A DNA stretch of 64,000 bases. It comes from Escherichia phage phiLLS. Under the pieces are notes generated by a model. The model was given only the letters and a program-made list of their open reading frames with translations. It made no database searches and was not told the DNA's origin. The stretch lies in sequence record NC_047822.1; one strand, written 5' to 3'. A program made the translations under genes and the position numbers. Shown here piece by piece: positions 15,327 through 56,995 of this stretch. Position 1 is the stretch's first letter; each line of letters opens with the position of its first letter.

Positions 15327-16094
15327 TTATTCAGCAGCCGCAGCTTTTGCATCCAGTTTAGCACGCTTAGCGGCACCATCATAGTCCTTAGCAACCAGAC
15401 CACGACGAGACAGCATAGATTTAACACCGCGCTCAGACTTACCAGTTTTCTCAGCGATCTCAGCAACAGTCATGTTAACCAGATCCAGACCTTCTAACAG
15501 ATCTTCACGAGTTTTAGCACTTGAGGTTTCCTGTACCGGCATAGCGGCGATACGACCTTCACGAAGCAAGCTCAGAGCTTTACCACGAATCTGCTTGATA
15601 TTGCGACCGAAGTGAGCAGCGATAGCTTCAATAGTAGCACCAGCAACAACCTGATTAACAAAATCAGTTTCTTCATCCGGAGTGAAGGAACGAACAGCAG
15701 CAGCTTTTTCGGTTGGTTTAACAGAAGCGGTCATTTCCAGACTCAGAATCTTACCCTGTACCTGCTTAGCACCGAACTGACCACCAGCTACAGCAGCAGC
15801 AATTTCAGCATAGGTATACTGACCAGCATGAGCGTTCAGGAAATCAACCAGTTCAGCTTCCTGCTCAGGAGTCCACGGGGATTTCTGTACTTCGTTAGCT
15901 TTTTGTACTTCAAAACCTTCTTTACGCAGTTTAGAGCCAACAGAGCGAGCAGTAACATCTTTACCAGTTTCAGCAGCCAGTTCAGCAGCGATAGCAGCTA
16001 CTTGTTCTTGAGAGATTACAGCAACACCCAGAGCAGTGGCTTTTGCTTTCAGAGACTCGGTTACACCTTCTACGTTCCAGTTCAGTTTAGACAT
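15327..16094 (-). CDS. Ala-rich putative DNA-binding protein (T5 D5-like)
   Basis: 255 aa ORF with internally repeated helical segments. Confidence 0.5.
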   Translation of the reverse strand: MSKLNWNVEGVTESLKAKATALGVAVISQEQVAAIAAELAAETGKDVTARSVGSKLRKEGFEVQKANEVQKSPWTPEQEAELVDFLNAHAGQYTYAEIAAAVAGGQFGAKQVQGKILSLEMTASVKPTEKAAAVRSFTPDEETDFVNQVVAGATIEAIAAHFGRNIKQIRGKALSLLREGRIAAMPVQETSSAKTREDLLEGLDLVNMTVAEIAEKTGKSERGVKSMLSRRGLVAKDYDGAAKRAKLDAKAAAAE

Positions 16095-16869
16095 TATTAT
16101 TTTTCTCCAATAGTTCTTTAATCGACAGGATTTCTATCCCATTCGTTTCGGCTTTCTTATAAGATGAGGAAGAACATTTTGATTCATCCTCACAGATTAG
16201 GTATTTGACGTCTTTGGTAACGGATTTCTTAACCGTATACCCTAGACTTTCTAAATAGTTTGTTGCATCCGTTCTATTTGCAAAATCTTGCAAAGATCCG
16301 GTAATACACACCGCGATTCCATTTGGCTGGGCAACTAATTCATCCGTAATGATAATATTAGCTTTAGTGCCCTTAATACCAGTTGAAAATTTCCACGGTA
16401 GTTCGATAACATCCTTGCCTTGTGGGGAATTTAGCCAGGCTTTATAATTTTCTCCAGCCTTGCCGTCAGCCTTCACATCGTGGAAGCTAGTGCAATTTTG
16501 GGATAATTTCTTTGCTGCAACCTCTCCAATTAGAGGGATTCCTAAAGAACCGAGAACTGAACCAAAGTCAATGTCTCCGCGAACTTTAGTATTTAATTCG
16601 CTAATTAACTTAGCGGCAACCTTGCTACCCACGGCTCTAACCAAATCTTCTTCGGTTAGGTAAAATAGTTCTGAAATCTTCGTCAGCTCCAGCTTCTCAA
16701 TAGTTTTTGGACCAAAGCCCTTTAACTTCATTTTTGAACAGAAGTTCTCAATTAACTTGCTTGATTGCGCTGGACAATTGGACTTATTACGACAGAATAA
16801 TTGTCCGTTGACAAGATCTAGCTTAGAACCACAAGAGGGACATTGTGTTGGAATTTCGATTTTCATCAA
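16087..16869 (-). CDS. NAD-dependent DNA ligase, C-terminal part (Zn-finger/HhH/BRCT-like)
   Basis: 260 aa; CPSCGSKL...C Zn finger, HhH-like GFGPKTIEKL. Confidence 0.75.
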   Translation of the reverse strand: MMKIEIPTQCPSCGSKLDLVNGQLFCRNKSNCPAQSSKLIENFCSKMKLKGFGPKTIEKLELTKISELFYLTEEDLVRAVGSKVAAKLISELNTKVRGDIDFGSVLGSLGIPLIGEVAAKKLSQNCTSFHDVKADGKAGENYKAWLNSPQGKDVIELPWKFSTGIKGTKANIIITDELVAQPNGIAVCITGSLQDFANRTDATNYLESLGYTVKKSVTKDVKYLICEDESKCSSSSYKKAETNGIEILSIKELLEKNNNV

Positions 16870-17068: not shown

Positions 17069-18040
17069 TTAATCGTATACTCGCTCTACTATGCACGGGA
17101 TTACACCACCAGCACGAATCACTCGAATCTGGCAACCGATCTCTAGATCGAGAGAGTTAATATAATCAACGTTATTAAGAGTCGCTTTAACAATTGTAGC
17201 ATCATCAATAATTACCGGTTCGAAATAACCAACTGGAGTTACTTTACCAGAAGCCCCTACCTGCCATTCAACTCTAGTAAGAGTTGTAATCTCGCCTTCT
17301 TCATCCTCTTTAATAGCGAATGCTCCACGAGGGAATTTATTAGTCCAGCCTTCCCGGAAGAATTTGTTGTTGTCATTAATACGAACAACTTTACCGTCCG
17401 TCGGAATCCATTTAAAGAAGGAACGCACATTAACAACTGTTAAGAAATCTTCATTCTCTAGCCAAAGCATATCTTTTAAGTACGATTCTGTAATACCCAC
17501 AGATTCAGCAGAACACTGGATACCGTATGCAACGAAGATTAAACCACCTTCCCCGATACGTTGTACGAAATCATCGCTATCTTTGAGGTTAATAGCACCT
17601 GAGGCAAAGTTACGTTTATTTTCTACTTCTTTTGTAATTAGAACTTCACCAGTGATTTGAGTAGGTACTTTTTGGGAAATCTTTTTAGGGATATTCAGCA
17701 GTCTTACGTTGCTTGTGACATCATTCCCTAGAATACCATTACCACGAGTTAGTGCTTGAACAAATTCGCCATTAATATATAATAGAGAAATCGCACAACC
17801 ATCTAACTTGTCAGTTTCTACCTGACCTAATGGGTTAAATGGGGGTTTATCTCCACGATTATAATAAACTTTCTGTAAAGAATACATACGGTACAGATGT
17901 GGAATATCACCCTTAGGCCCGATCTCTTCTTCTAACGGAAATCTTTTAATCAGACGATCATATTCTTCATCAGAGATTAAAGACATTCCCTGGTAATATG
18001 CTTCTTGGCAACGTTTAATAAATTCTTTTACATTGGTCAT
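17069..18040 (-). CDS. NAD-dependent DNA ligase, N-terminal adenylation part
   Basis: 323 aa; KxDG adenylation motif (TDKLDGCAISL), N-terminal NAD-binding Ia-like region. Confidence 0.8.
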   Translation of the reverse strand: MTNVKEFIKRCQEAYYQGMSLISDEEYDRLIKRFPLEEEIGPKGDIPHLYRMYSLQKVYYNRGDKPPFNPLGQVETDKLDGCAISLLYINGEFVQALTRGNGILGNDVTSNVRLLNIPKKISQKVPTQITGEVLITKEVENKRNFASGAINLKDSDDFVQRIGEGGLIFVAYGIQCSAESVGITESYLKDMLWLENEDFLTVVNVRSFFKWIPTDGKVVRINDNNKFFREGWTNKFPRGAFAIKEDEEGEITTLTRVEWQVGASGKVTPVGYFEPVIIDDATIVKATLNNVDYINSLDLEIGCQIRVIRAGGVIPCIVERVYD

Positions 18041-24250: not shown

Positions 24251-24643
24251 TCATTCATCATTTAATCCCGGAACATAGATCCCAACACGGCTTAATTGTT
24301 CTTTAGCTTCTGCGAGAATATCTGGAGTGTACTCCCAAATATCATCTTCCACCTGTAAAAGATGGGGCGAACAACCATCATCCGGCACACGACATATGGC
24401 CAACCCACGTGGATGGAATATAGAGAAGTTTAGGGCAACAATCAAGCCCATAACAGACAATTCATTCCAATCCAATTCCCATTCCCCGGCATATCCAGAC
24501 AGGAAAACGCCAATGCAGGGGTCATCTATTTGCTGCTCCGGAAAAGTGAAGGAGGCTTGCCTTACCCCCAACCAACGTTGTAGCAGTTTTTCCGCACGTT
24601 TCACCAAACTAGGGTCAATATGTCGCCAAAATACTCGTTCCAT
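24251..24643 (-). CDS. hypothetical protein, paralog of adjacent ORF
   Basis: 130 aa; shares CIG(V/L)...W.ELD.MGL(I/V)(V/F)ALN...IPGL(N/T) blocks with 24653-25081. Confidence 0.55.
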   Translation of the reverse strand: MERVFWRHIDPSLVKRAEKLLQRWLGVRQASFTFPEQQIDDPCIGVFLSGYAGEWELDWNELSVMGLIVALNFSIFHPRGLAICRVPDDGCSPHLLQVEDDIWEYTPDILAEAKEQLSRVGIYVPGLNDE

Positions 24644-24652
24644 TCTGCCTCC

Positions 24653-25081
24653 TTAAGCAGTTAAACCTGGGATGATATACCCGAAACGTCGAAGTTTCTG
24701 AATCCCCTCATTTACTTCTTCCGGTGAGTAAGACCAACCATAACGTTCATTAACCTGAAAACCAGGAGATTCACTAGTCTTATAGTTAACAACGAGGCGA
24801 TGCTTAGCAGGCATAAACAGCTTATAGTTTAACGCAAAAACTAAGCCCATTTCATCTAGCTCTTTCCATCCCACAATCTCTTCAAGACCATCCTCTACCT
24901 GCACAATTAAACCAATACATGGGGCCTCATCAATATCATCTTTAAAAGCAAAGGAGATTTCGTTATTCTCACACCATATTTTCAAAAAGTTAATAGCCTC
25001 ATTATACAGGCTAGCCGGGAGAGTACGCCAAAAGTTAACCAAAATTGGGTTAGCTTCTTTAGAGAATACATTATTGAACAT
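24653..25081 (-). CDS. hypothetical protein, paralog of adjacent ORF
   Basis: 142 aa; tandem duplicate of 24251-24643. Confidence 0.55.
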   Translation of the reverse strand: MFNNVFSKEANPILVNFWRTLPASLYNEAINFLKIWCENNEISFAFKDDIDEAPCIGLIVQVEDGLEEIVGWKELDEMGLVFALNYKLFMPAKHRLVVNYKTSESPGFQVNERYGWSYSPEEVNEGIQKLRRFGYIIPGLTA

Positions 25082-25083
25082 AC

Positions 25084-25590
25084 TTACACCTTAAATTGTT
25101 GTAAGGATTTACACATTTCAAGATCTGGGCTAAATTCTAGCATATAGCTAACAGCCATTAAATCTTGAAGATTTATTCCAGTTCTACCATTGACTATAAC
25201 CGTTGGATACTGGTACATCATAGCACCAGCGTCATCCAGTACACACCAATGTTTGAGCTTATGCTTTTCAACGAAGCGAAGAACAGAATTACCCCTAGAT
25301 AGCCCACCACCAGTAAAATCCGTTGTACCAAGAAAACGATCGATAAGACCCAATCCGGTCATAATCTGAACGTTCTCCATCTCATTCCTGACAGAGAACC
25401 ATGAGGATACCCCAACAATCATTATCGGAGAAGGACGAATAAAGTCCTGAAAAGCCTTGAGAAGCGGTTTGAAAACCCAGTCACTTCCAAAGAAAATCTT
25501 TTCATCATCAGGTGCATGATGGTGGGAGATGCTCGAATTGAGCACCCCATCAATGTCTAGAAAAATAATTGGAGTATTACTTATTTCCAT
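25084..25590 (-). CDS. HAD-superfamily phosphatase (putative deoxyribonucleotidase)
   Basis: 168 aa; N-terminal FLDIDGVL matches HAD motif I (DxDGxL). Confidence 0.65.
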   Translation of the reverse strand: MEISNTPIIFLDIDGVLNSSISHHHAPDDEKIFFGSDWVFKPLLKAFQDFIRPSPIMIVGVSSWFSVRNEMENVQIMTGLGLIDRFLGTTDFTGGGLSRGNSVLRFVEKHKLKHWCVLDDAGAMMYQYPTVIVNGRTGINLQDLMAVSYMLEFSPDLEMCKSLQQFKV

Positions 25591-25759
25591 TTTTGTTCCT
25601 TTCTAAGAACGTATCATACTCAGCCGTATCAACATATATGACACCATAGTCATCGGATTTATAGTCCATTTCCCACAGTTCACAGCGATAGCACCAACTA
25701 CCGTCCGCCCATACAAATATATCATCAGAGTGTGTATACACAGATTTAATTATGGACAT
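25577..25759 (-). CDS. hypothetical protein
   Basis: 60 aa ORF overlapping neighbours by a few nt (translational coupling). Confidence 0.35.
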   Translation of the reverse strand: MSIIKSVYTHSDDIFVWADGSWCYRCELWEMDYKSDDYGVIYVDTAEYDTFLERNKNGNK

Positions 25760-26574
25760 ATTTGTTTCCCCGGCATATAAGGTCTACCCTCTAGATGAGC
25801 TTCTACACGAGCAATAAAATCAGGGTCACTGAAAGCATCTACCGCACCTTTACTCCAGTAAGGGATACCGCGTTCTTCCAGCTGGTACATCTCACTACGA
25901 GTCATACCTTGATAGCCCGGTTCCGCCGCTAGGGCACTATCATAGTAGTTAACAACCATAAGTTTCGCAGCAGTCAAATTAAGAACAGGAAATAATTCCC
26001 AGTAGAAATTAATTACTTGGTTAGAGCAACCAACCACAATGATCATATCTTGACTGGTAATACCATCAAAAACATTGTACATTTCTGCATATGCAGGAGC
26101 ATGCTCTCCAAAGAAGATTACATTAGGTTTAACCCATTTATAATCATCTGGATCAATAGAATTATATCCTACATCAATAATCCGTTTATTGCTACTATTG
26201 TAGCTATCAGCTACAACAACCTCTTTTAAATATCCGTGAATGTGCAGAATATCACTATGTGGAACGCCAGCACGCTCAATAAGGTCATCAACGTTGGTAG
26301 TCAAGTTTACTACTTGACCGGGGTATTGTTTATACCATTCACCAATACGCAAATGCGCAAGATTGGGTTCAACAGTTTTTAGCTCTTCACGACGCTTGTT
26401 GTAAAACATATGGGTTTTATGATAAAAATTACCACGAAAGGCATGAATATTACATACTTCTTCTAGATCATAATCATCCCACAATGCTTTACCACTAGCA
26501 GTATCAGTACGAAAAGCTCGTACACCACTTTCAACACTCAAACCTGCACCGCTAATAATAATTAATCTACGCAC
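25750..26574 (-). CDS. Sir2-like (sirtuin family) protein
   Basis: 274 aa; ISGAGLSVESGVRAFR matches Sir2 GAGIS..SGI..FR NAD-binding motif. Confidence 0.7.
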   Translation of the reverse strand: MRRLIIISGAGLSVESGVRAFRTDTASGKALWDDYDLEEVCNIHAFRGNFYHKTHMFYNKRREELKTVEPNLAHLRIGEWYKQYPGQVVNLTTNVDDLIERAGVPHSDILHIHGYLKEVVVADSYNSSNKRIIDVGYNSIDPDDYKWVKPNVIFFGEHAPAYAEMYNVFDGITSQDMIIVVGCSNQVINFYWELFPVLNLTAAKLMVVNYYDSALAAEPGYQGMTRSEMYQLEERGIPYWSKGAVDAFSDPDFIARVEAHLEGRPYMPGKQICP

Positions 26575-26768: not shown

Positions 26769-26940
26769 AAAGTTTTTCCTCTAGTTCCATAACACGATTT
26801 TCATAAGAAGCACGCAACTTTTCAATTGCCAGCGCACGCACTGTAACCTCATTAGAATTAATAGCTAATTGGGCCAGGTCTTCTGTTTCCATACGTCCGT
26901 TGTAAATTAAGCGATATTTAAGATGTTTTACGTTTTTCAT
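26737..26940 (-). CDS. hypothetical protein
   Basis: 67 aa ORF. Confidence 0.35.
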   Translation of the reverse strand: MKNVKHLKYRLIYNGRMETEDLAQLAINSNEVTVRALAIEKLRASYENRVMELEEKLYGLLESESKK

Positions 26941-27311
26941 TCTTTTAGCTCCGTTCCAATATCCTCATAGAAGTAGTCGTAGTAAACCTGCTTAATATGA
27001 TGTTTAATAACAGAAGAGAAATCCTCTGTGCCATTAAGGGTAACATTAAACACTTGTAAGTGGTTCCAATATACAAATTCTAGAGTCTCTTTTAAGTCTT
27101 CAGGTTCTTCATATATAGGATTATAGACAGTAATATCTAGTTCTTGCTCTACGAAGTCACCTAGTAATGCAGGATACCCAATACCCCCTAGTAATGAGTA
27201 ATCACCTGTAGCAGCAAAAATAGCTTCCTGAACAGTATCTACTCCTAAGTGATAATGTCCTAACTTAGATACAACAATAAATGGTTTTAGGTCCATATAC
27301 CCTCCTCTCAA
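26937..27311 (-). CDS. hypothetical protein
   Basis: 124 aa ORF downstream of promoter. Confidence 0.45.
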   Translation of the reverse strand: MRGGYMDLKPFIVVSKLGHYHLGVDTVQEAIFAATGDYSLLGGIGYPALLGDFVEQELDITVYNPIYEEPEDLKETLEFVYWNHLQVFNVTLNGTEDFSSVIKHHIKQVYYDYFYEDIGTELKE

Positions 27312-27394: not shown

Positions 27395-29269
27395 TTATTT
27401 AGCTCGAATATCCTGATGTTTCACCCTGCCCATAACCTCGTGCTGTTTGCCGGGGTTAAATGGACGAGCGCCCGGATTTCCAAGATACCCACAAACTCGA
27501 CGAGTTACTTCAAGAGTTTCGGGGTCATGATTACCACAGATAGGGCACTTAAATCCATCTTCGGATGCTATTGTTTCACCTAAGAATCCACATTTACCAC
27601 AGGAATCCACTGGGGTATTAATACCGAAGTAATGAACCTTACTAGCAGCATAATTAATAACCCATTCCAGTGCATCTGGGAATCGTTTCATATCCGGTAG
27701 TTCTACATAGGAAATGCACCCACCAGAAGCAATCGGAGTAAAGTTAGATTCATAATCAAATTTGACGTTAGGAGCAACTTTACGTTCCACATCAAGGTGA
27801 TGCGAGTTAGTGTAGTATCCTTTAGACAGAATATCTTCATGCTCTGGGAAATATTCACGGTCTAAACGGCAAAACCTATCACATAGGGACTCTGATGGTG
27901 TAGCATACAGGCTATAACCTAACTTAGTCTCTTCCTTCTTCTGATCGACTCTATCTCGCATGTACTGCAATACACGCTGAACAAACTTGATGCAGGTCTC
28001 TGACATTGTGTCTACATCTTTGCCAAACATGAACTGTAGCATTTCATGGCAACCAATATACCCTAGAGATACAGAAGCACGGTTATAGAAATGATCGAAT
28101 ACATATTCATCAGGCTCCAAGCGTAACCCAAAGGCTCCTGACATATAGAGGATGGGTGCAGCTTTAGCTTGGATGTACTTTAAGCGATCAACTCTCCACT
28201 CCAATGCTTTTAACGCTGTATCCACACGTAGCTCAAGCAAATCAAAGAATAGATCAATATTTCCTTCAGCTTCGATAGCAATTCTAGGCAAGTTTACAGA
28301 AACAACACCTAAGTTATTACGGCCAGCAGTTTCACCATCTTCTGCAGCAGCTAGGAATGAACGGCAGCCCATAGAAACTTTATAGTCTCCAGTAACTTCT
28401 ACAACTTTGTCATAGCTGATATAATCTGGATACATACGTTCAGCAGTACATTTCATAGCTAACTTCTTGATGTCATAATTAACATCTCCTGGTTTCATAT
28501 TTACGCCATCGCGAAGTACAAATACCAGTTTCGGGAAGATAGCTGTACGTTTATTGATACCTAAACCATCCATGCGTACTTTCAGTATTGCTTTCTGTAC
28601 TAGACGTGCTTCCCAGGAAGTTCCTAGACCAAAACCAAAGGTAATAAATGGACTCTGACCATTAGAGTTGAACATGGTATTGATTTCATATTCTAAACCC
28701 TGACAAGCGTCATAGACTTCTTTTTCAGTCATCTCCGTAGCCATTACTGATGCTTTGGCTTCATCCTTAGTCCAACGTTTTGCAAACGCATGATTTTTGT
28801 CATAGGATTTACGAACATAAGGGGCTAATACTTCATCAAGGCGATCTACAGAAGTACCACCATACTGATGGGAGCTAACCTGAGTGATAATCTGAGCAGT
28901 AATAGCCGCCGCAGTAGTGATAGAGTTTGGAGTGCTAATTTCAGCATTACCAACCTTCATACCATTCTTCAACATATCTTCCAGAGCTACCAGACAACAG
29001 TTAGTCATGCCTAATGCAGCATAATCAGCATCATGGAAATGAATATCCCCAATCATATGAGCATTTCGAATCTGAATTGGCATTTCTTCTAGAATCAGAT
29101 ACTTACTCAATTCACCTGCAAGCATATCCCTTTGTGTAGGGAAACGTTCTGAGGGTTTATTGGCATTATTAAACAGCAGCTCTTCATCTGCTGACCCTTC
29201 GATAATCTCTTTGCAGTTTCTAATTAACGCCTGCATTTCTTTATATTTTAGTTCTTCATTACGATTCAT
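27395..29269 (-). CDS. nrdD: anaerobic ribonucleoside-triphosphate reductase (class III RNR)
   Basis: 624 aa; C-terminal glycyl-radical motif RVCGYLG and Zn-ribbon CGKCGF...CPICG. Confidence 0.9.
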   Translation of the reverse strand: MNRNEELKYKEMQALIRNCKEIIEGSADEELLFNNANKPSERFPTQRDMLAGELSKYLILEEMPIQIRNAHMIGDIHFHDADYAALGMTNCCLVALEDMLKNGMKVGNAEISTPNSITTAAAITAQIITQVSSHQYGGTSVDRLDEVLAPYVRKSYDKNHAFAKRWTKDEAKASVMATEMTEKEVYDACQGLEYEINTMFNSNGQSPFITFGFGLGTSWEARLVQKAILKVRMDGLGINKRTAIFPKLVFVLRDGVNMKPGDVNYDIKKLAMKCTAERMYPDYISYDKVVEVTGDYKVSMGCRSFLAAAEDGETAGRNNLGVVSVNLPRIAIEAEGNIDLFFDLLELRVDTALKALEWRVDRLKYIQAKAAPILYMSGAFGLRLEPDEYVFDHFYNRASVSLGYIGCHEMLQFMFGKDVDTMSETCIKFVQRVLQYMRDRVDQKKEETKLGYSLYATPSESLCDRFCRLDREYFPEHEDILSKGYYTNSHHLDVERKVAPNVKFDYESNFTPIASGGCISYVELPDMKRFPDALEWVINYAASKVHYFGINTPVDSCGKCGFLGETIASEDGFKCPICGNHDPETLEVTRRVCGYLGNPGARPFNPGKQHEVMGRVKHQDIRAK

Positions 29270-29462
29270 TACACCCTCCTTCTCTAACTAAGACTACTAT
29301 TATAACTCATTCGAGGGCGGATGTCAATATAATTTTTCTCTTAGATATTGTATTTTGATCTGTGCTAAGAAAATTGATCAGAATGTCAAAATTTTATTGA
29401 CACCACCATAACTTTTGTATAAGATATATACATAACTTAAAAAATTTGACAAGGAAATAAAA

Positions 29463-29954
29463 ATGAACACTGAAATAACACAAGACCTACTAAGAACCTA
29501 CTTTGACTATAAAGATGGAGAATTGTTTTACAAACCAACCTATAAAACCCCTGCGGGAAGAATATCCAAAAAAGCAGGTAAATCTGCCAGACTAACTCCG
29601 TGTAACGGGTACTATCGTATAAATGTACCAAGAATAGGTGTACAGAAAGAACATAGGATGATTTTCCTATATCATGAAGGATACCTACCAGAAGTAGTAG
29701 ATCATATTGATAGGGATAAAGAAAATAATAGGATAGAGAACCTTAGGGCATCTAATCTTCAGGACAACGCTATTAATCGCTCCATAAGTAAGAGTAATAC
29801 CTCTGGTATTGTGGGTGTCCATTATGATGAATCGTATGGTAAGTGGGTTGTAACGTATAGGGGTAAGTACTTTGGAAGATTTGATACCAAAGAAGAAGCT
29901 GCCGAAGTTAATGCTAATGTTCGTGCCCTTGATCAAACCCGTATAAATAGTTGA
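29463..29954 (+). CDS. HNH homing endonuclease with AP2-like DNA-binding domain
   Basis: 163 aa; VDHIDRDKENNRIENLRASN HNH motif; paralog of 33690, 37181, 54193 ORFs. Confidence 0.8.
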   Translation: MNTEITQDLLRTYFDYKDGELFYKPTYKTPAGRISKKAGKSARLTPCNGYYRINVPRIGVQKEHRMIFLYHEGYLPEVVDHIDRDKENNRIENLRASNLQDNAINRSISKSNTSGIVGVHYDESYGKWVVTYRGKYFGRFDTKEEAAEVNANVRALDQTRINS

Positions 29955-33689: not shown

Positions 33690-34190
33690 TTGATTACGCA
33701 AGAAGAATTAAAACTTTTATTGGATTATGGCCCAATAAAAGGAATCTTTATATGGAAAGAACGAAATCCAGATAAAGGTGGATTTAACAAACAATTCGCA
33801 GGAAAAGTAGCAGGAACATATGATGATCTTGGCTACCTACGAATTAAGATTAACGGTGTGCAATATTTAGCGCATAGATTGGCCTTCCTTTTCGTAAAAG
33901 GATATATGCCAGAATTAGTAGACCATAAAGACCGTAATCCTAGTAATCTAGCTTGGGACAACCTTAGAGAAGCTACCAATTCTCAAAATATAATGAACTC
34001 AGCTGCTAGATCAGATAATAAACTAGGACTAAAGAACATAAGAATCAAGGGAAACTCATATCAGGTACGAATAGGCAAGAATGGCAAATCGTACACCAAG
34101 ACTATGAAATCTCTTGAAGAAGCCATAGAATGGCGGGATACTAAACTAGCTGAACTACACCAAGAATTTGCTAACAATGGAGAAGATTAA
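33690..34190 (+). CDS. HNH homing endonuclease (AP2-like domain), free-standing between nrdA and nrdB
   Basis: 166 aa; VDHKDRNPSNLAWDNLREAT HNH motif; TTG start with GGGAG SD. Confidence 0.8.
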   Translation: MITQEELKLLLDYGPIKGIFIWKERNPDKGGFNKQFAGKVAGTYDDLGYLRIKINGVQYLAHRLAFLFVKGYMPELVDHKDRNPSNLAWDNLREATNSQNIMNSAARSDNKLGLKNIRIKGNSYQVRIGKNGKSYTKTMKSLEEAIEWRDTKLAELHQEFANNGED

Positions 34191-54099: not shown

Positions 54100-54172
54100 T
54101 GGAGAGTAGTGTAACGGTTAGCACAACGGCCTTTGACTCCGTTAATGGTAGGTTCGATTCCTCCTTCTCCAG
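54100..54172 (+). tRNA. tRNA-Gln (anticodon TTG)
   Basis: acceptor tggagag/ttctcca, loop CTTTGAC; CCA encoded. Confidence 0.7.
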
Positions 54173-54192
54173 CCAACTTAAAAGGTAAAAAT

Positions 54193-54753
54193 GTGAAGGT
54201 AATACCGGAATTTCCATTATATAGTATATCTGAGGATGGTAAAGTTTGGTCAACTTATTCTAATAAGTTTTTATCCTCTTATATTAACAATGATGGGTAT
54301 CCCTGTTATAAATTACATAAGAAGGGGGTTCAGTATACTCAACTAATACATAGATTATTAGCTAGAGTATACAAAGATCTGCCTTCTCTGGATTCTGACC
54401 TAGAGGTAGATCACAAAGATACTAATATTCTTAACTATGCACTAGAGAATATACAAGTTCTCAGTAAAGAGGATCACAGAAAGAAAACCTTACTAGATAA
54501 TGGGTATACTGCGTATAACAAGGTATGTCCAACTTGCTCAGGATACAAAGATCCCGGAGCTATTCAGTGTAAGGGATGTTCTTCGCTATCCCAAGTAAAG
54601 AATAAAGATGTTACTGCTGAGCAAATAGAATACTGGGTGTCCAAGTATTCATGGGTTAGAGCAGCCAAAGAATTTGGATACTCAGATAATGGACTTCGTA
54701 AAAGGTATAAATCCCTTACTGGTAAAGATCCAAAAACAATAAAACGCGGTTAG
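54193..54753 (+). CDS. HNH homing endonuclease inserted in tRNA cluster
   Basis: HNH motif EVDHKDTNILNYALENIQVL and C-terminal Zn-finger-like CPTCSG...CKGC; probable GTG start at 54193 after tRNA-Gln. Confidence 0.7.
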   Translation: MKVIPEFPLYSISEDGKVWSTYSNKFLSSYINNDGYPCYKLHKKGVQYTQLIHRLLARVYKDLPSLDSDLEVDHKDTNILNYALENIQVLSKEDHRKKTLLDNGYTAYNKVCPTCSGYKDPGAIQCKGCSSLSQVKNKDVTAEQIEYWVSKYSWVRAAKEFGYSDNGLRKRYKSLTGKDPKTIKRG

Positions 54754-55870: not shown

Positions 55871-55943
55871 AAAACATAACAGTTAGTTGGCAGAGTGGTT
55901 ATGCACCTCCTTCATACGGAGCGACTACAGTGGTTCAAATCCA
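55871..55943 (+). tRNA. tRNA with CAT anticodon (third CAT tRNA; Met/fMet/Ile2)
   Basis: perfect acceptor agttagt/actaact and T-arm AGTGG/CCACT; loop TTCATAC; CCA encoded. Confidence 0.7.
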
Positions 55944-55993
55944 CTACTAACTACCATTAAAATAGCTAGAGATAGCTAAATTTAGGAGCAGCT

Positions 55994-56188
55994 ATGTTAA
56001 CAATTAAAATAATGTCAGCCAAGAATGGGGAGCAGATTCATACAGGCAAAAGTGTAAGCTTTAATCCTAGAAATAAAAGATTAGCTATAGTTGGAGTAGA
56101 CCAAGCCATCTTTTTAAAAGAAGATGAAGTAGCATATGTTATGAACCAAACTGGTAAGACAGTTTCCGTATACTATGGAAAAGTATAA
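55994..56188 (+). CDS. hypothetical protein
   Basis: 64 aa ORF with AGGAG SD. Confidence 0.45.
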   Translation: MLTIKIMSAKNGEQIHTGKSVSFNPRNKRLAIVGVDQAIFLKEDEVAYVMNQTGKTVSVYYGKV

Positions 56189-56230
56189 AGAATAAAGAGC
56201 TGAGCCAAATTCTAACATCGGGGAGATCTA

Positions 56231-56599
56231 ATGAAAGCATATCAAAACCTTAAATCTGGCGTAATTAATATTGTTCATAATAATCAGATCATTCAGCTAT
56301 ACTCCGACAATGGTGAACTTAAACAGAAAGTTCTAGTTGAAGATCTAGAAGGTATTACACCACAATTCGATCCTGAATCCTTCCGTGAAGTTAAGGTGGA
56401 AGTCGCCCCTCAAATCGAAGGTGGTCAGCACCTAAATGTCAATGTATTAAGCCGTGATCAGCTTTTGGATGCACAGAAACATCCTGAAAAGTACCCTCAA
56501 TTAACTATCCGTGTTTCAGGGTACGCTGTACGTTTTAATGCACTGACTCGTGAACAGCAGAACGACGTTATTAGTCGTACATTTACTCAGGCGATGTAA
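56231..56599 (+). CDS. grcA: autonomous glycyl-radical cofactor (GrcA/YfiD-like)
   Basis: 122 aa; C-terminal [19 protein letters not shown] glycyl-radical signature. Confidence 0.75.
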
Positions 56600-56680
56600 T
56601 GGGGTTTGGATACGATTTCTCCGAATTACGTGAGGTAGTCGAGCAAATTCCATTTATCTCCCAAGTTTTAGGAGAAATGT

Positions 56681-56995
56681 GTGGATCGAGCATTAAGACG
56701 CCATCACCGGCAACGTGTGAAGAACAACCGCAAGAAGTATTGGACAGTATTTCCACATGAAGAAAGCCCTAAGCGGTTAGGTATTATCACTACTACTCCT
56801 TGCATCTGTTCTTGTTGGATGTGCGGGAACCCTCGCAAATATTATAAGAATAGTAAAGCAGGCATGAAAATTTCGGAGATTAGGAAAATGGAAGCAATGA
56901 TTATGGGCATCTCAAATGATGAATTTGATGGCTTTGTAGGATTCGGAGAAGGAATTAGCTCAGGCTGTTTCGAAGATGAACGCCCCGATCTGTAA
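56681..56995 (+). CDS. hypothetical Cys-rich basic protein
   Basis: 104 aa; CICSCWMCGN cluster; GTG start with AGGAG SD. Confidence 0.45.
   Translation: MDRALRRHHRQRVKNNRKKYWTVFPHEESPKRLGIITTTPCICSCWMCGNPRKYYKNSKAGMKISEIRKMEAMIMGISNDEFDGFVGFGEGISSGCFEDERPDL

What the first reader, a model, noticed from the sequence alone, without database searches (positions are those of the whole stretch)
56231..56599. GrcA-like glycyl-radical cofactor encoded together with NrdD but no NrdG activase
The phage encodes the glycyl-radical enzyme NrdD (27395-29269) and a separate small glycyl-radical protein ending in [17 protein letters not shown], but I found no radical-SAM activase (no CxxxCxxC ORF). Both therefore probably depend on host activating enzymes. 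The GrcA-like protein could rescue oxygen-damaged host pyruvate formate-lyase, or conceivably the phage NrdD, during anaerobic infection.
Basis: partly seen in the sequence, partly recalled or inferred. Interest (0 to 1): 0.45.

Follow-up and report, generated by a model that had tools for sequence, protein, structure and literature searches.

The report
T5-like phage GrcA spare-part protein
This is the already-known GrcA ("spare glycyl-radical part") gene that T5-like phages carry, most likely to keep the host's pyruvate formate-lyase working after oxygen damage; like the phage's anaerobic ribonucleotide reductase, it must rely on host activating enzymes because the phage has none, so the finding is correct but ordinary.

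Summary
ORF 56231-56599 (+) encodes a 122-aa GrcA-type glycyl-radical protein. It matches E. coli GrcA/YfiD at E=1e-30 and the PflB C-terminus at E=5e-27, and 49 of its last 62 residues are identical to PflB. NrdD is at 27395-29269, but on the minus strand, and is catalytically intact. No radical-SAM activase exists in the window or in two complete relatives (SSP1, T5): the best NrdG-profile hit is E=0.3, against 1e-84 for the positive controls. A 104-aa ORF 82 nt downstream carries CICSCWMC, but it is not an activase.

The window is bases 1-64000 of the published Escherichia phage phiLLS, and the gene is the ortholog of T5.056. Many records already annotate it as grcA. The T4 homolog Y06I (vs.6) was shown in 2001 to rebuild oxygen-cleaved PFL after activation by host PFL activase. 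"nrdD without nrdG" in T5-type phages was reported in 2013.

The gene is under strong purifying selection (dN/dS 0.07). Rescue of phage NrdD is very unlikely. A plausible but untested link is that PFL makes formate, which is the reductant of this type of NrdD. Novelty: already known. Interest is low.

The parts
56231..56599 (+). grcA-like gene (122 aa plus stop). It is phiLLS ORF81 and the ortholog of T5.056 and of T4 vs.6/Y06I.
   Evidence: ORF and sequence. Gly_radical and GrcA models. PDB 6owr at 1.1e-30. phrog_1209 over the full length. 100% identical to the phiLLS protein, with the same coordinates in the phiLLS gene table. dN/dS 0.068 over 29 alleles.
56220..56225 (+). Shine-Dalgarno-like GGGGAG, 5 nt before the ATG
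   Evidence: Read directly from the sequence.
56231..56410 (+). N-terminal half (residues 1-60). It is phage-type and begins MKAYQ.L, as in T4 vs.6. By analogy with E. coli GrcA it would serve as the docking and recognition part.
   Evidence: Alignment A1. tblastn aligns T4-type homologs over residues 1-122 at 51% identity. dN/dS 0.11. AF2 predicts a 4-stranded sheet with pLDDT about 80. The role of the N-half in E. coli GrcA is described in PMC8683613.
56411..56596 (+). C-terminal glycyl-radical domain (residues 61-122). It duplicates the PflB C-terminus.
   Evidence: 49/62 identical to E. coli PflB 698-759, 48/62 to E. coli GrcA and 49/62 to the T4-type protein. The residue 63-119 region holds 44 invariant columns among 11 homologs. 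dN/dS 0.017. The fold matches 6owr and 2pfl.
56519..56521 (+). Codon of Gly97 in RVSGYAV, the predicted radical-bearing glycine (equivalent to PflB Gly734)
   Evidence: Sequence. Alignment to PFL and GrcA. Gly734 is the radical site and O2 cleavage site according to PMC8683613.
27395..29269 (-). nrdD, class III (anaerobic) ribonucleotide reductase, 624 aa, without an ATP-cone. It is catalytically intact and of the formate type.
   Evidence: Pfam and NCBIfam. 54% identical to E. coli NrdD and 50% to RB69 NrdD. C91, M300, C302, G594 and the four Zn cysteines are conserved, and the glycine loop is 20/26 identical to E. coli against 15/26 for RB69. dN/dS 0.010 against SSP1.
29299..29327 (-). Consensus sigma-70 promoter of nrdD (TTGACA, 17 nt, TATAAT)
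   Evidence: Sequence. T5 annotates nrdD with its own promoter and terminator. No FNR box is nearby.
56599..56760 (+). 53-aa ORF whose ATG overlaps the grcA stop codon (TAATG). Function unknown. Listed as context only.
   Evidence: Open in 29 of 29 T5-like loci. phrog_31464.
56681..56995 (+). 104-aa ORF with CICSCWMC (= T5.055). It is the only CxxxCxxC-bearing ORF and is not an activase.
55881..55956 (+). tRNA-Met, the last tRNA of the early tRNA cluster, upstream in the same orientation. In T5 it lies 13 nt from the gene and in the same transcription unit.
   Evidence: T5 annotation with promoter P11 and a terminator after T5.055.

Best explanation
The gene encodes a phage version of the autonomous glycyl-radical cofactor GrcA (YfiD in E. 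coli, Y06I/vs.6 in T4). It is an early gene of a T5-like phage (phiLLS).

Proposed mechanism, inferred by homology and not shown here: when traces of oxygen cleave the host pyruvate formate-lyase (PflB) at its radical glycine, the enzyme loses its C-terminal radical domain. The phage protein is a near-copy of that 62-residue domain. It docks into the cleaved enzyme, helped by its N-terminal half. The host PFL-activating enzyme PflA (radical SAM) then converts its Gly97 to a glycyl radical, and PFL activity returns. This would keep acetyl-CoA/ATP and formate production going in micro-oxic infected cells.

The phage encodes no activase. The GrcA-like protein therefore needs host PflA, and the separately encoded, intact phage NrdD needs host NrdG. 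A likely but untested connection between the two genes is metabolic: PFL produces formate, the reductant used by the characterised E. coli and T4 class III reductases, to which this NrdD belongs.
For: Family and domain:
- Pfam Gly_radical 3.2e-18 and NCBIfam GrcA 2.5e-35.
- E. coli GrcA structure 6owr at 1.1e-30 and PFL at 4.7e-27.
- The last 62 residues are 49/62 identical to PflB and 48/62 to GrcA.
- The RVSGYAV glycine and 44 columns are invariant across 11 phage and bacterial homologs.
- The AF2 C-terminal half superposes on 6owr and 2pfl.

Full-length homology to the validated T4 protein:
- T4-type vs.6 aligns over residues 1-122 at 51% identity.
- phrog_1209 covers positions 1-121 of 121.
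- Y06I and YfiD are activated by PFL-AE and restore O2-cleaved PFL (PMC8683613, citing Wagner 2001).

The gene is functional:
- It is intact in 30 of 30 T5-like loci.
- dN/dS is 0.068 overall, 0.11 for the N half and 0.017 for the C half.
- It has a good ribosome-binding site.

No activase:
-, with controls at 1e-84 and 1e-86.
- The phiLLS published gene table lists none.
- NrdG occurs in 2273 phage records, none of them T5-like in a 40-row spread. NrdD occurs in 2922. At least 649 records are therefore nrdD-only, and about 550 of the NrdD records are T5-family.

NrdD is intact and close to the host enzyme at the activase-contacting glycine loop, with dN/dS 0.010. Formate is the reductant of the characterised class III RNRs (PMC4493059).
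Against: No biochemical or genetic test has been done on the T5-type protein.

Its N-terminal half, which in E. coli GrcA is needed for binding cleaved PFL and for efficient activation, is not recognisably similar to the bacterial N-half. The NCBIfam GrcA model aligns only residues 50-122 and scores 121.5 bits, below the 170 cut-off. The validated T4-type protein also falls below that cut-off, at 154.6.

AF2 predicts an ordered beta-sheet for the N-half, whereas E. coli YfiD 1-60 is reported to be disordered.

Activation of phage NrdD by host NrdG is inferred only from the absence of a phage activase together with purifying selection.

The formate link is a hypothesis. I could not compute gene co-occurrence across phages.
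Confidence: 0.8

Rival explanations
1. The small protein is a spare glycyl-radical domain for the phage's own NrdD, replacing its C-terminus after oxygen cleavage.
For: Both genes lie in one genome that lacks NrdG. All glycyl-radical enzymes suffer the same O2 cleavage, and spare parts for enzymes other than PFL have been speculated about (PMC8683613).
Against: There is no significant similarity to the NrdD C-terminus (best blastp E=1.0 over 21 residues). The protein has no cysteine, while the NrdD C-terminal domain carries the four-Cys zinc site. The domain is 79% identical to PflB, so it has been kept matched to PFL. T4-type phages that carry their own NrdG also have the same protein.
Confidence: 0.03
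2. The protein acts against the host. It would be a decoy substrate that soaks up PFL activase, or a dominant-negative partner that blocks host PFL, redirecting pyruvate.
For: It is an early gene in a phage that shuts down host functions (T5 annotation). Its N-half differs from bacterial GrcA.
Against: The C-domain is conserved at every position that is invariant in functional GrcA and PFL, including the radical glycine. Its dN/dS of 0.017 indicates more constraint than a mere binder would need. The T4 homolog restores PFL activity rather than inhibiting it.
Confidence: 0.05
3. It repairs a different host PFL-family enzyme, for example 2-ketobutyrate formate-lyase TdcE, rather than PflB. Several database records name it that way.
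For: Records label it '2-ketobutyrate formate-lyase'. E. coli genomes contain a median of three places similar to the gene. I assume these are pflB, grcA and tdcE, but only pflB was listed.
Against: The best DNA match in E. coli is the pflB 3' end (74.7% over 186 nt). The database labels are automatic name transfers. PflB is the constitutive, abundant enzyme according to PMC8683613. This reading is compatible with the main explanation rather than opposed to it. I did not compare against the TdcE sequence.
Confidence: 0.1
4. It is a decaying, non-functional fragment of a captured host pflB or grcA gene.
For: The similarity to host DNA is restricted to the 3' half.
Against: It is intact in all 30 T5-like loci, with synonymous divergence dS=0.38 but dN/dS=0.068, and the N-half is also constrained. 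A conserved phage-wide family covers the full length (phrog_1209), and 1584 phage records hold a homolog.
Confidence: 0.02

Closest known systems
Bacteriophage T4 Y06I (gene vs.6), autonomous glycyl radical cofactor
   Same: A small phage protein (120 against 122 aa) that aligns over the full length at about 51% identity. It shares the MKAYQ.L N-terminus and 49/62 identical residues in the C-terminal domain. Both belong to the same PHROG. Both are early-region genes, and neither phage encodes a PFL activase. Y06I was shown to be activated by E. coli PFL-AE and to reconstitute O2-cleaved PFL (Wagner 2001, via PMC8683613).
   Different: The middle of the N-terminal half is divergent. The T4-type C-domain is nearly identical to E. 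coli GrcA (60/62), whereas the T5-type is equidistant from GrcA and PflB (48-49/62). T4 also encodes NrdG next to nrdD, and T5-type phages do not. The T5-type protein has not been tested experimentally.
E. coli GrcA / YfiD (PDB 6owr)
   Same: Same size class (127 aa), the same two-part layout, 48/62 identity in the C-domain, and the same radical glycine motif.
   Different: Residues 1-49 are not aligned by the NCBIfam GrcA model, and the score of 121.5 is below the equivalog cut-off of 170. The N-half is predicted to be ordered rather than disordered.
C-terminal glycyl-radical domain of E. coli pyruvate formate-lyase PflB (residues 698-759)
   Same: 49/62 identical, with the same ending ...RTFTQ(A/S)M. 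It is the best DNA-level match in E. coli.
   Different: The phage protein is a stand-alone 122-aa protein without the 10-stranded barrel or the catalytic cysteines.
nrdD-only phages (T5, SPC35, EPS7) described by Dwivedi et al. 2013
   Same: The same nrdD - phoH - nrdA - nrdB layout, with no nrdG.
   Different: Nothing differs. This window is another member of that group.

Membership tests
Autonomous glycyl radical cofactor (GrcA/YfiD/Y06I) | Small stand-alone protein of about 120-130 aa | tested here: met
   122 aa. Homologs are 117-127 aa.
Autonomous glycyl radical cofactor (GrcA/YfiD/Y06I) | C-terminal domain of about 60 aa homologous to the PFL C-terminus, with the RVSGYAV radical glycine | tested here: met
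   Pfam PF01228 at 3.2e-18. PFL at 4.7e-27 and GrcA at 1.1e-30. 49/62 identical to PflB. The fold matches 6owr and 2pfl.
Autonomous glycyl radical cofactor (GrcA/YfiD/Y06I) | Reaches the curated NCBIfam equivalog cut-off (TIGR04365, 170 bits) | tested here: not met
   121.5 bits, with residues 50-122 only. As a control, the T4-type protein, which is the experimentally validated phage member, also fails at 154.6, while a bacterial GrcA scores 233. The cut-off therefore defines bacterial GrcA, not the functional class.
Autonomous glycyl radical cofactor (GrcA/YfiD/Y06I) | N-terminal half homologous to that of a validated member | tested here: met
   tblastn aligns T4-type vs.6 over residues 1-122. 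The N-terminus MKAYQ.L is shared. phrog_1209 covers the full length. Similarity to the bacterial N-half is weak.
Autonomous glycyl radical cofactor (GrcA/YfiD/Y06I) | Glycyl radical installed by PFL-activating enzyme, and restores activity to O2-cleaved PFL | not testable with these tools
   This needs EPR and enzyme assays. It has been shown only for YfiD and Y06I.
Class III ribonucleotide reductase NrdD (formate type) | NRDD domain, radical Gly in RVCGYLG, thiyl Cys with the preceding Met (MGCR), a second active-site Cys, and a C-terminal four-Cys zinc site | tested here: met
   The residues are G594, C302, M300, C91 and C557/560/575/578. The reference residue numbers for E. coli are from memory, but all aligned columns are identical in E. 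coli, RB69 and the window.
Glycyl-radical activase (NrdG/PflA, radical SAM) | Protein of at least about 150 aa with CxxxCxxC and homology to NrdG or PflA, encoded by the phage | tested here: not met
   None in the window, in SSP1 (113,299 bp) or in T5 (1-111,000). The best hit is E=0.31 against controls at 1e-84 and 1e-86. The phiLLS gene table lists none. Bases 64001-107263 of phiLLS itself were not available to scan.

The most novel reading that the evidence does not exclude
The T5-type phage uses two host radical-SAM activases at once. Host NrdG would arm the phage NrdD, whose glycine loop has stayed host-like (20/26 identical to E. coli against 15/26 for the T4-type enzyme, which brings its own activase). 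Host PflA would arm the phage GrcA. The role of GrcA in infection would then be specifically to secure formate, the reductant of the phage NrdD, so that dNTP synthesis continues in the fluctuating-oxygen gut. The two genes would form one functional module although they lie 27 kb apart.
Probability: 0.3. Interest if true: 0.4.

Novelty: already known. Interest (0 to 1): 0.15.

Why it matters
It matters little beyond correct annotation. The gene is often mislabelled in databases as 'pyruvate formate-lyase', '2-ketobutyrate formate-lyase', 'acetyltransferase-related' or even 'ribonucleotide reductase subunit', and PHROGs lists its family as unknown function. 'Phage GrcA-type spare glycyl-radical cofactor' is the right name.

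A modest open question remains and is easy to test. Do T5-like phages really use host NrdG and PflA, and does phage GrcA serve to feed formate to the phage anaerobic reductase during infection at low oxygen? The answer would say something about how gut phages cope with anaerobiosis.

Tried and rejected
- The marginal NrdG hit (E=0.17) in the ORF just downstream of nrdD, where T4 keeps nrdG. The window ORF 26937-27311 has no cysteine at all, no Pfam or NCBIfam hit and only a PHROG of unknown function. It is not an NrdG remnant.
- The CICSCWMC ORF 56681-56995 as a mini-activase. Rejected for the reasons given in the observation check: no Pfam hit, NrdG-profile E=0.31 for the T5 copy, motif not found in 3 of 29 loci.
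- The idea that Vibrio phages of about 120 kb with adjacent nrdD-nrdG are T5 relatives that kept nrdG. VMJ710 is a Mohonavirus (ICP1-like), not Demerecviridae, so I dropped this.
- An FNR box upstream of nrdD or grcA, which would give oxygen-responsive expression. There were 6 one-mismatch hits against 5 expected by chance, and none is near either gene. nrdD instead has a perfect sigma-70 promoter.
- The promoter and terminator scan around grcA gave nothing above chance.
- The look-up of encoding contigs for the phiLLS protein found no record.
- A naive codon comparison of nrdD with the T5 reference gave dN/dS of about 1. This was an alignment artefact caused by a 150-nt in-frame deletion in T5.
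- Literature searches for Tequintavirus plus glycyl radical, and for T5-like plus PFL or NrdD, found no paper on the T5-type protein.

Full report
**What is there.** ORF 56231-56599 (+) is real. It has an ATG start, a GGGGAG ribosome-binding site 5 nt upstream, and encodes 122 aa. It matches Pfam Gly_radical (E=3.2e-18, residues 62-103) and, best of all NCBIfam models, the autonomous glycyl radical cofactor GrcA (TIGR04365, E=2.5e-35), followed by the GrcA3, GrcA2 and PFL models. Against solved structures, the top hits are E. coli GrcA/YfiD (6owr, E=1.1e-30) and E. coli PFL (E=4.7e-27, residues 61-122 aligned to PFL 698-759). The radical glycine is Gly97 in RVSGYAV (codon 56519-56521). The quoted motif is not quite the C-terminus; 12 more residues follow it.

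**Source of the window.** The protein is 100% identical to a protein of Escherichia phage phiLLS. The gene table of the phiLLS paper has exactly the window's coordinates: ORF35 at 27,395-29,269 (-) and ORF81 at 56,231-56,599 (+), the latter named 'putative acetyltransferase-like protein' (PMC5519627). The window is therefore bases 1-64,000 of this 107,263-bp T5-like genome (Demerecviridae, Tequintavirus-type). The gene is the ortholog of T5.056, which has been annotated since the T5 genome as a match to IPR001150. In T5 it sits in the early tRNA region between promoter P11 and a terminator. In public records the gene is variously called grcA, glycine radical protein, pyruvate formate-lyase, 2-ketobutyrate formate-lyase or acetyltransferase-related.

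**NrdD.** The coordinates 27395-29269 are right, but the gene is on the minus strand. It is a full class III reductase: Pfam NRDD at 2.6e-172 and NCBIfam PRK09263 with 844 bits against a cut-off of 657. It lacks the N-terminal ATP-cone.
- It is 54% identical to E. coli NrdD and 50% to RB69 NrdD.
- All catalytic positions are conserved: C91, M300, C302, G594 and the four zinc cysteines.
- The 26 residues around the radical glycine, which the activase must reach, are 20/26 identical to E. coli but only 15/26 to RB69. RB69 is a phage that brings its own NrdG.
- Between the window and phage SSP1 there are 49 synonymous but only 2 non-synonymous differences, giving dN/dS 0.010.
- It has a perfect sigma-70 promoter (TTGACA, 17 nt, TATAAT at 29327-29299, minus strand) and no FNR box. 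In T5 it is annotated with its own promoter and terminator.

**No activase.** A six-frame CxxxCxxC scan of the window found the motif in only one open frame longer than 45 aa, the 104-aa ORF 56681-56995. I fetched two complete relatives, Shigella phage SSP1 (113,299 bp, about 96% identical to the window) and T5 (bases 1-111,000; by the left repeat's length, I infer that nearly all of the unfetched 111,001-121,750 is the right terminal repeat). I searched every six-frame segment of at least 40 aa with an NrdG profile (E. coli, RB69 and VMJ710) and with PflA, with HMMER filters off.
- The E. coli and RB69 control loci scored 1.4e-86 and 6.6e-84.
- The best phage segment scored E=0.31 (tblastn gave the same result).
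It did detect both NrdG controls (3e-10 and 1e-8).
- The published phiLLS gene table contains no activase, NrdG or radical entry.

Database-wide, NrdG homologs occur in 2273 phage records, and none of 40 evenly spread rows is a T5-type phage. NrdD occurs in 2922 records, of which 390 are at least 80% identical and 160 are 60-80% identical to this one. At least 649 records are therefore nrdD-only, and the T5 family accounts for most of them. Only 126 Salmonella phage records have NrdG, while 268-288 have this GrcA gene. [quoted passage not shown]

**The small Cys-motif ORF.** ORF 56681-56995 (= T5.055) carries CICSCWMC. It has no Pfam hit and matches only PHROGs of unknown function. It is smaller than the 154-aa E. 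coli NrdG used as control, and the motif was not found in 3 of 29 related loci. It is not an activase.

**Relation to known GrcA proteins.** Homologs occur in 1584 phage records:
- about 435 T5-type records at 80% identity or more;
- the T4-type phages at 51% identity over the whole length, where the gene is vs.6, the T4 gene whose product is Y06I (the vs.6 = Y06I identification is from memory);
- jumbo phages and Vibrio and Aeromonas phages.

The T5-type, T4-type and jumbo-phage proteins share an N-terminal MKAYQ.L / KAKQIL start, and the residue 63-119 region holds 44 invariant columns. PHROG 1209 covers the protein end to end, although PHROGs gives it no function. The last 62 residues are 49/62 identical to PflB, 48/62 to E. 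coli GrcA and 49/62 to the T4-type protein.

The NCBIfam GrcA score (121.5) is below the curated cut-off (170), and only residues 50-122 align. As a control, the T4-type protein, which is the experimentally validated phage member, also fails the cut-off (154.6), whereas a bacterial GrcA scores 233. The cut-off therefore delimits bacterial GrcA rather than the functional class.

Knappe's group showed that YfiD and T4 Y06I receive their radical from PFL-activating enzyme and reconstitute oxygen-cleaved PFL. These are still the only two validated spare-part proteins (PMC8683613; reference confirmed).

**Is the gene functional?** It is intact in all 30 T5-like loci retrieved from IMG/VR. Over 29 distinct alleles dS is 0.38 and dN/dS is 0.068. 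The N-terminal half gives 0.11 and the C-terminal half 0.017. Both halves are therefore under purifying selection.

An AlphaFold2 model (mean pLDDT 73, pTM 0.39, so only moderate confidence) gives a C-terminal half that superposes on 6owr and on PFL (rmsd about 2.6 Å over 51 columns). It gives an N-terminal four-stranded sheet at pLDDT about 80 with no structural match. E. coli YfiD residues 1-60 are reported as disordered but important for binding cleaved PFL and for activation. What the phage N-half does remains inferred.

**Mechanism and rivals.** The best-supported reading is a PFL spare part armed by host PflA. The domain identity and the selection are shown here. The activity is inferred from Y06I.

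Rescue of phage NrdD is very unlikely. There is no significant similarity to the NrdD C-terminus (best E=1.0). The protein has no cysteine, against a four-Cys zinc site in NrdD. The domain has been kept 79% identical to PflB. T4-type phages that own NrdG also carry it. So GrcA is not a compensation for the missing NrdG; its activase would be PflA in any case.

A real functional link may still exist. PFL makes formate, and formate is the reductant of the characterised class III reductases, including the E. coli and T4 enzymes to which this NrdD is closest (PMC4493059; MGCR motif). I found no paper stating or testing this for T5-type phages, and I could not compute co-occurrence.

**Verdict.** Everything essential is already known or annotated. 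Interest is low.

Noticed in passing
window 56599-56760 (+) and 56681-56995 (+): A 53-aa ORF starts on the stop codon of grcA (TAATG overlap) and is open in 29 of 29 T5-like loci (phrog_31464). Its 3' end is overlapped in another frame by the 104-aa ORF with the C-x-C-x-C-xx-C-GNPR motif (= T5.055; phrog_4499/6828). Different records annotate one or the other. Which ORF is expressed, and whether either relates to GrcA, is unknown.
   Followed up: partly
L044 4961-6685 (T5 NC_005859 53961-55685) versus window 27395-29269 (-): The NrdD of the T5 reference strain has an in-frame 50-aa deletion (window NrdD residues 392-441). The deletion removes the RASVSLGYIGCHE motif, which is conserved in E. 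coli and RB69 NrdD. The laboratory T5 enzyme may therefore be defective, while phiLLS and SSP1 have the full-length gene.
   Followed up: partly
window 29299-29327 (-): A perfect consensus sigma-70 promoter (TTGACA, 17 nt, TATAAT) sits just upstream of nrdD. There is no FNR site, so the anaerobic reductase appears to be transcribed regardless of oxygen.
   Followed up: partly
window 56231-56410 (+): AlphaFold2 predicts the N-terminal half of the phage GrcA as an ordered four-stranded beta-sheet (pLDDT about 80) with no PDB match. The corresponding half of E. coli YfiD is reported to be disordered.
   Followed up: partly
window 24251-26574 (-): Downstream of nrdD, after three small ORFs of unknown function, lies a block of four genes: a Sir2-family protein (25750-26574), a HAD domain of the 'Swiss Army Knife RNA repair' type (25084-25590) and two paralogous DUF7415 proteins (24653-25081 and 24251-24643).
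   Followed up: no
window 29463-29954, 33690-34190, 54133-54753 (+): HNH homing-endonuclease ORFs are scattered through the nucleotide-metabolism and tRNA regions. One lies between nrdD and phoH, one between nrdA and nrdB, and one overlaps the tRNA-Gln(ttg) gene at 54100-54175.
   Followed up: no
window 55994-56188 (+): A 64-aa ORF (phrog_3909) lies between tRNA-Met and grcA. It is annotated in T5_ev212 and SSP1. The T5 reference annotation instead puts tRNA-Met only 13 nt upstream of T5.056.
   Followed up: no
window 16087-16869 and 17069-18040 (-): By synteny with SSP1 and T5, the NAD-dependent DNA ligase appears to be encoded as two separate ORFs, as annotated for T5 ligA/ligB and for SSP1.
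   Followed up: no
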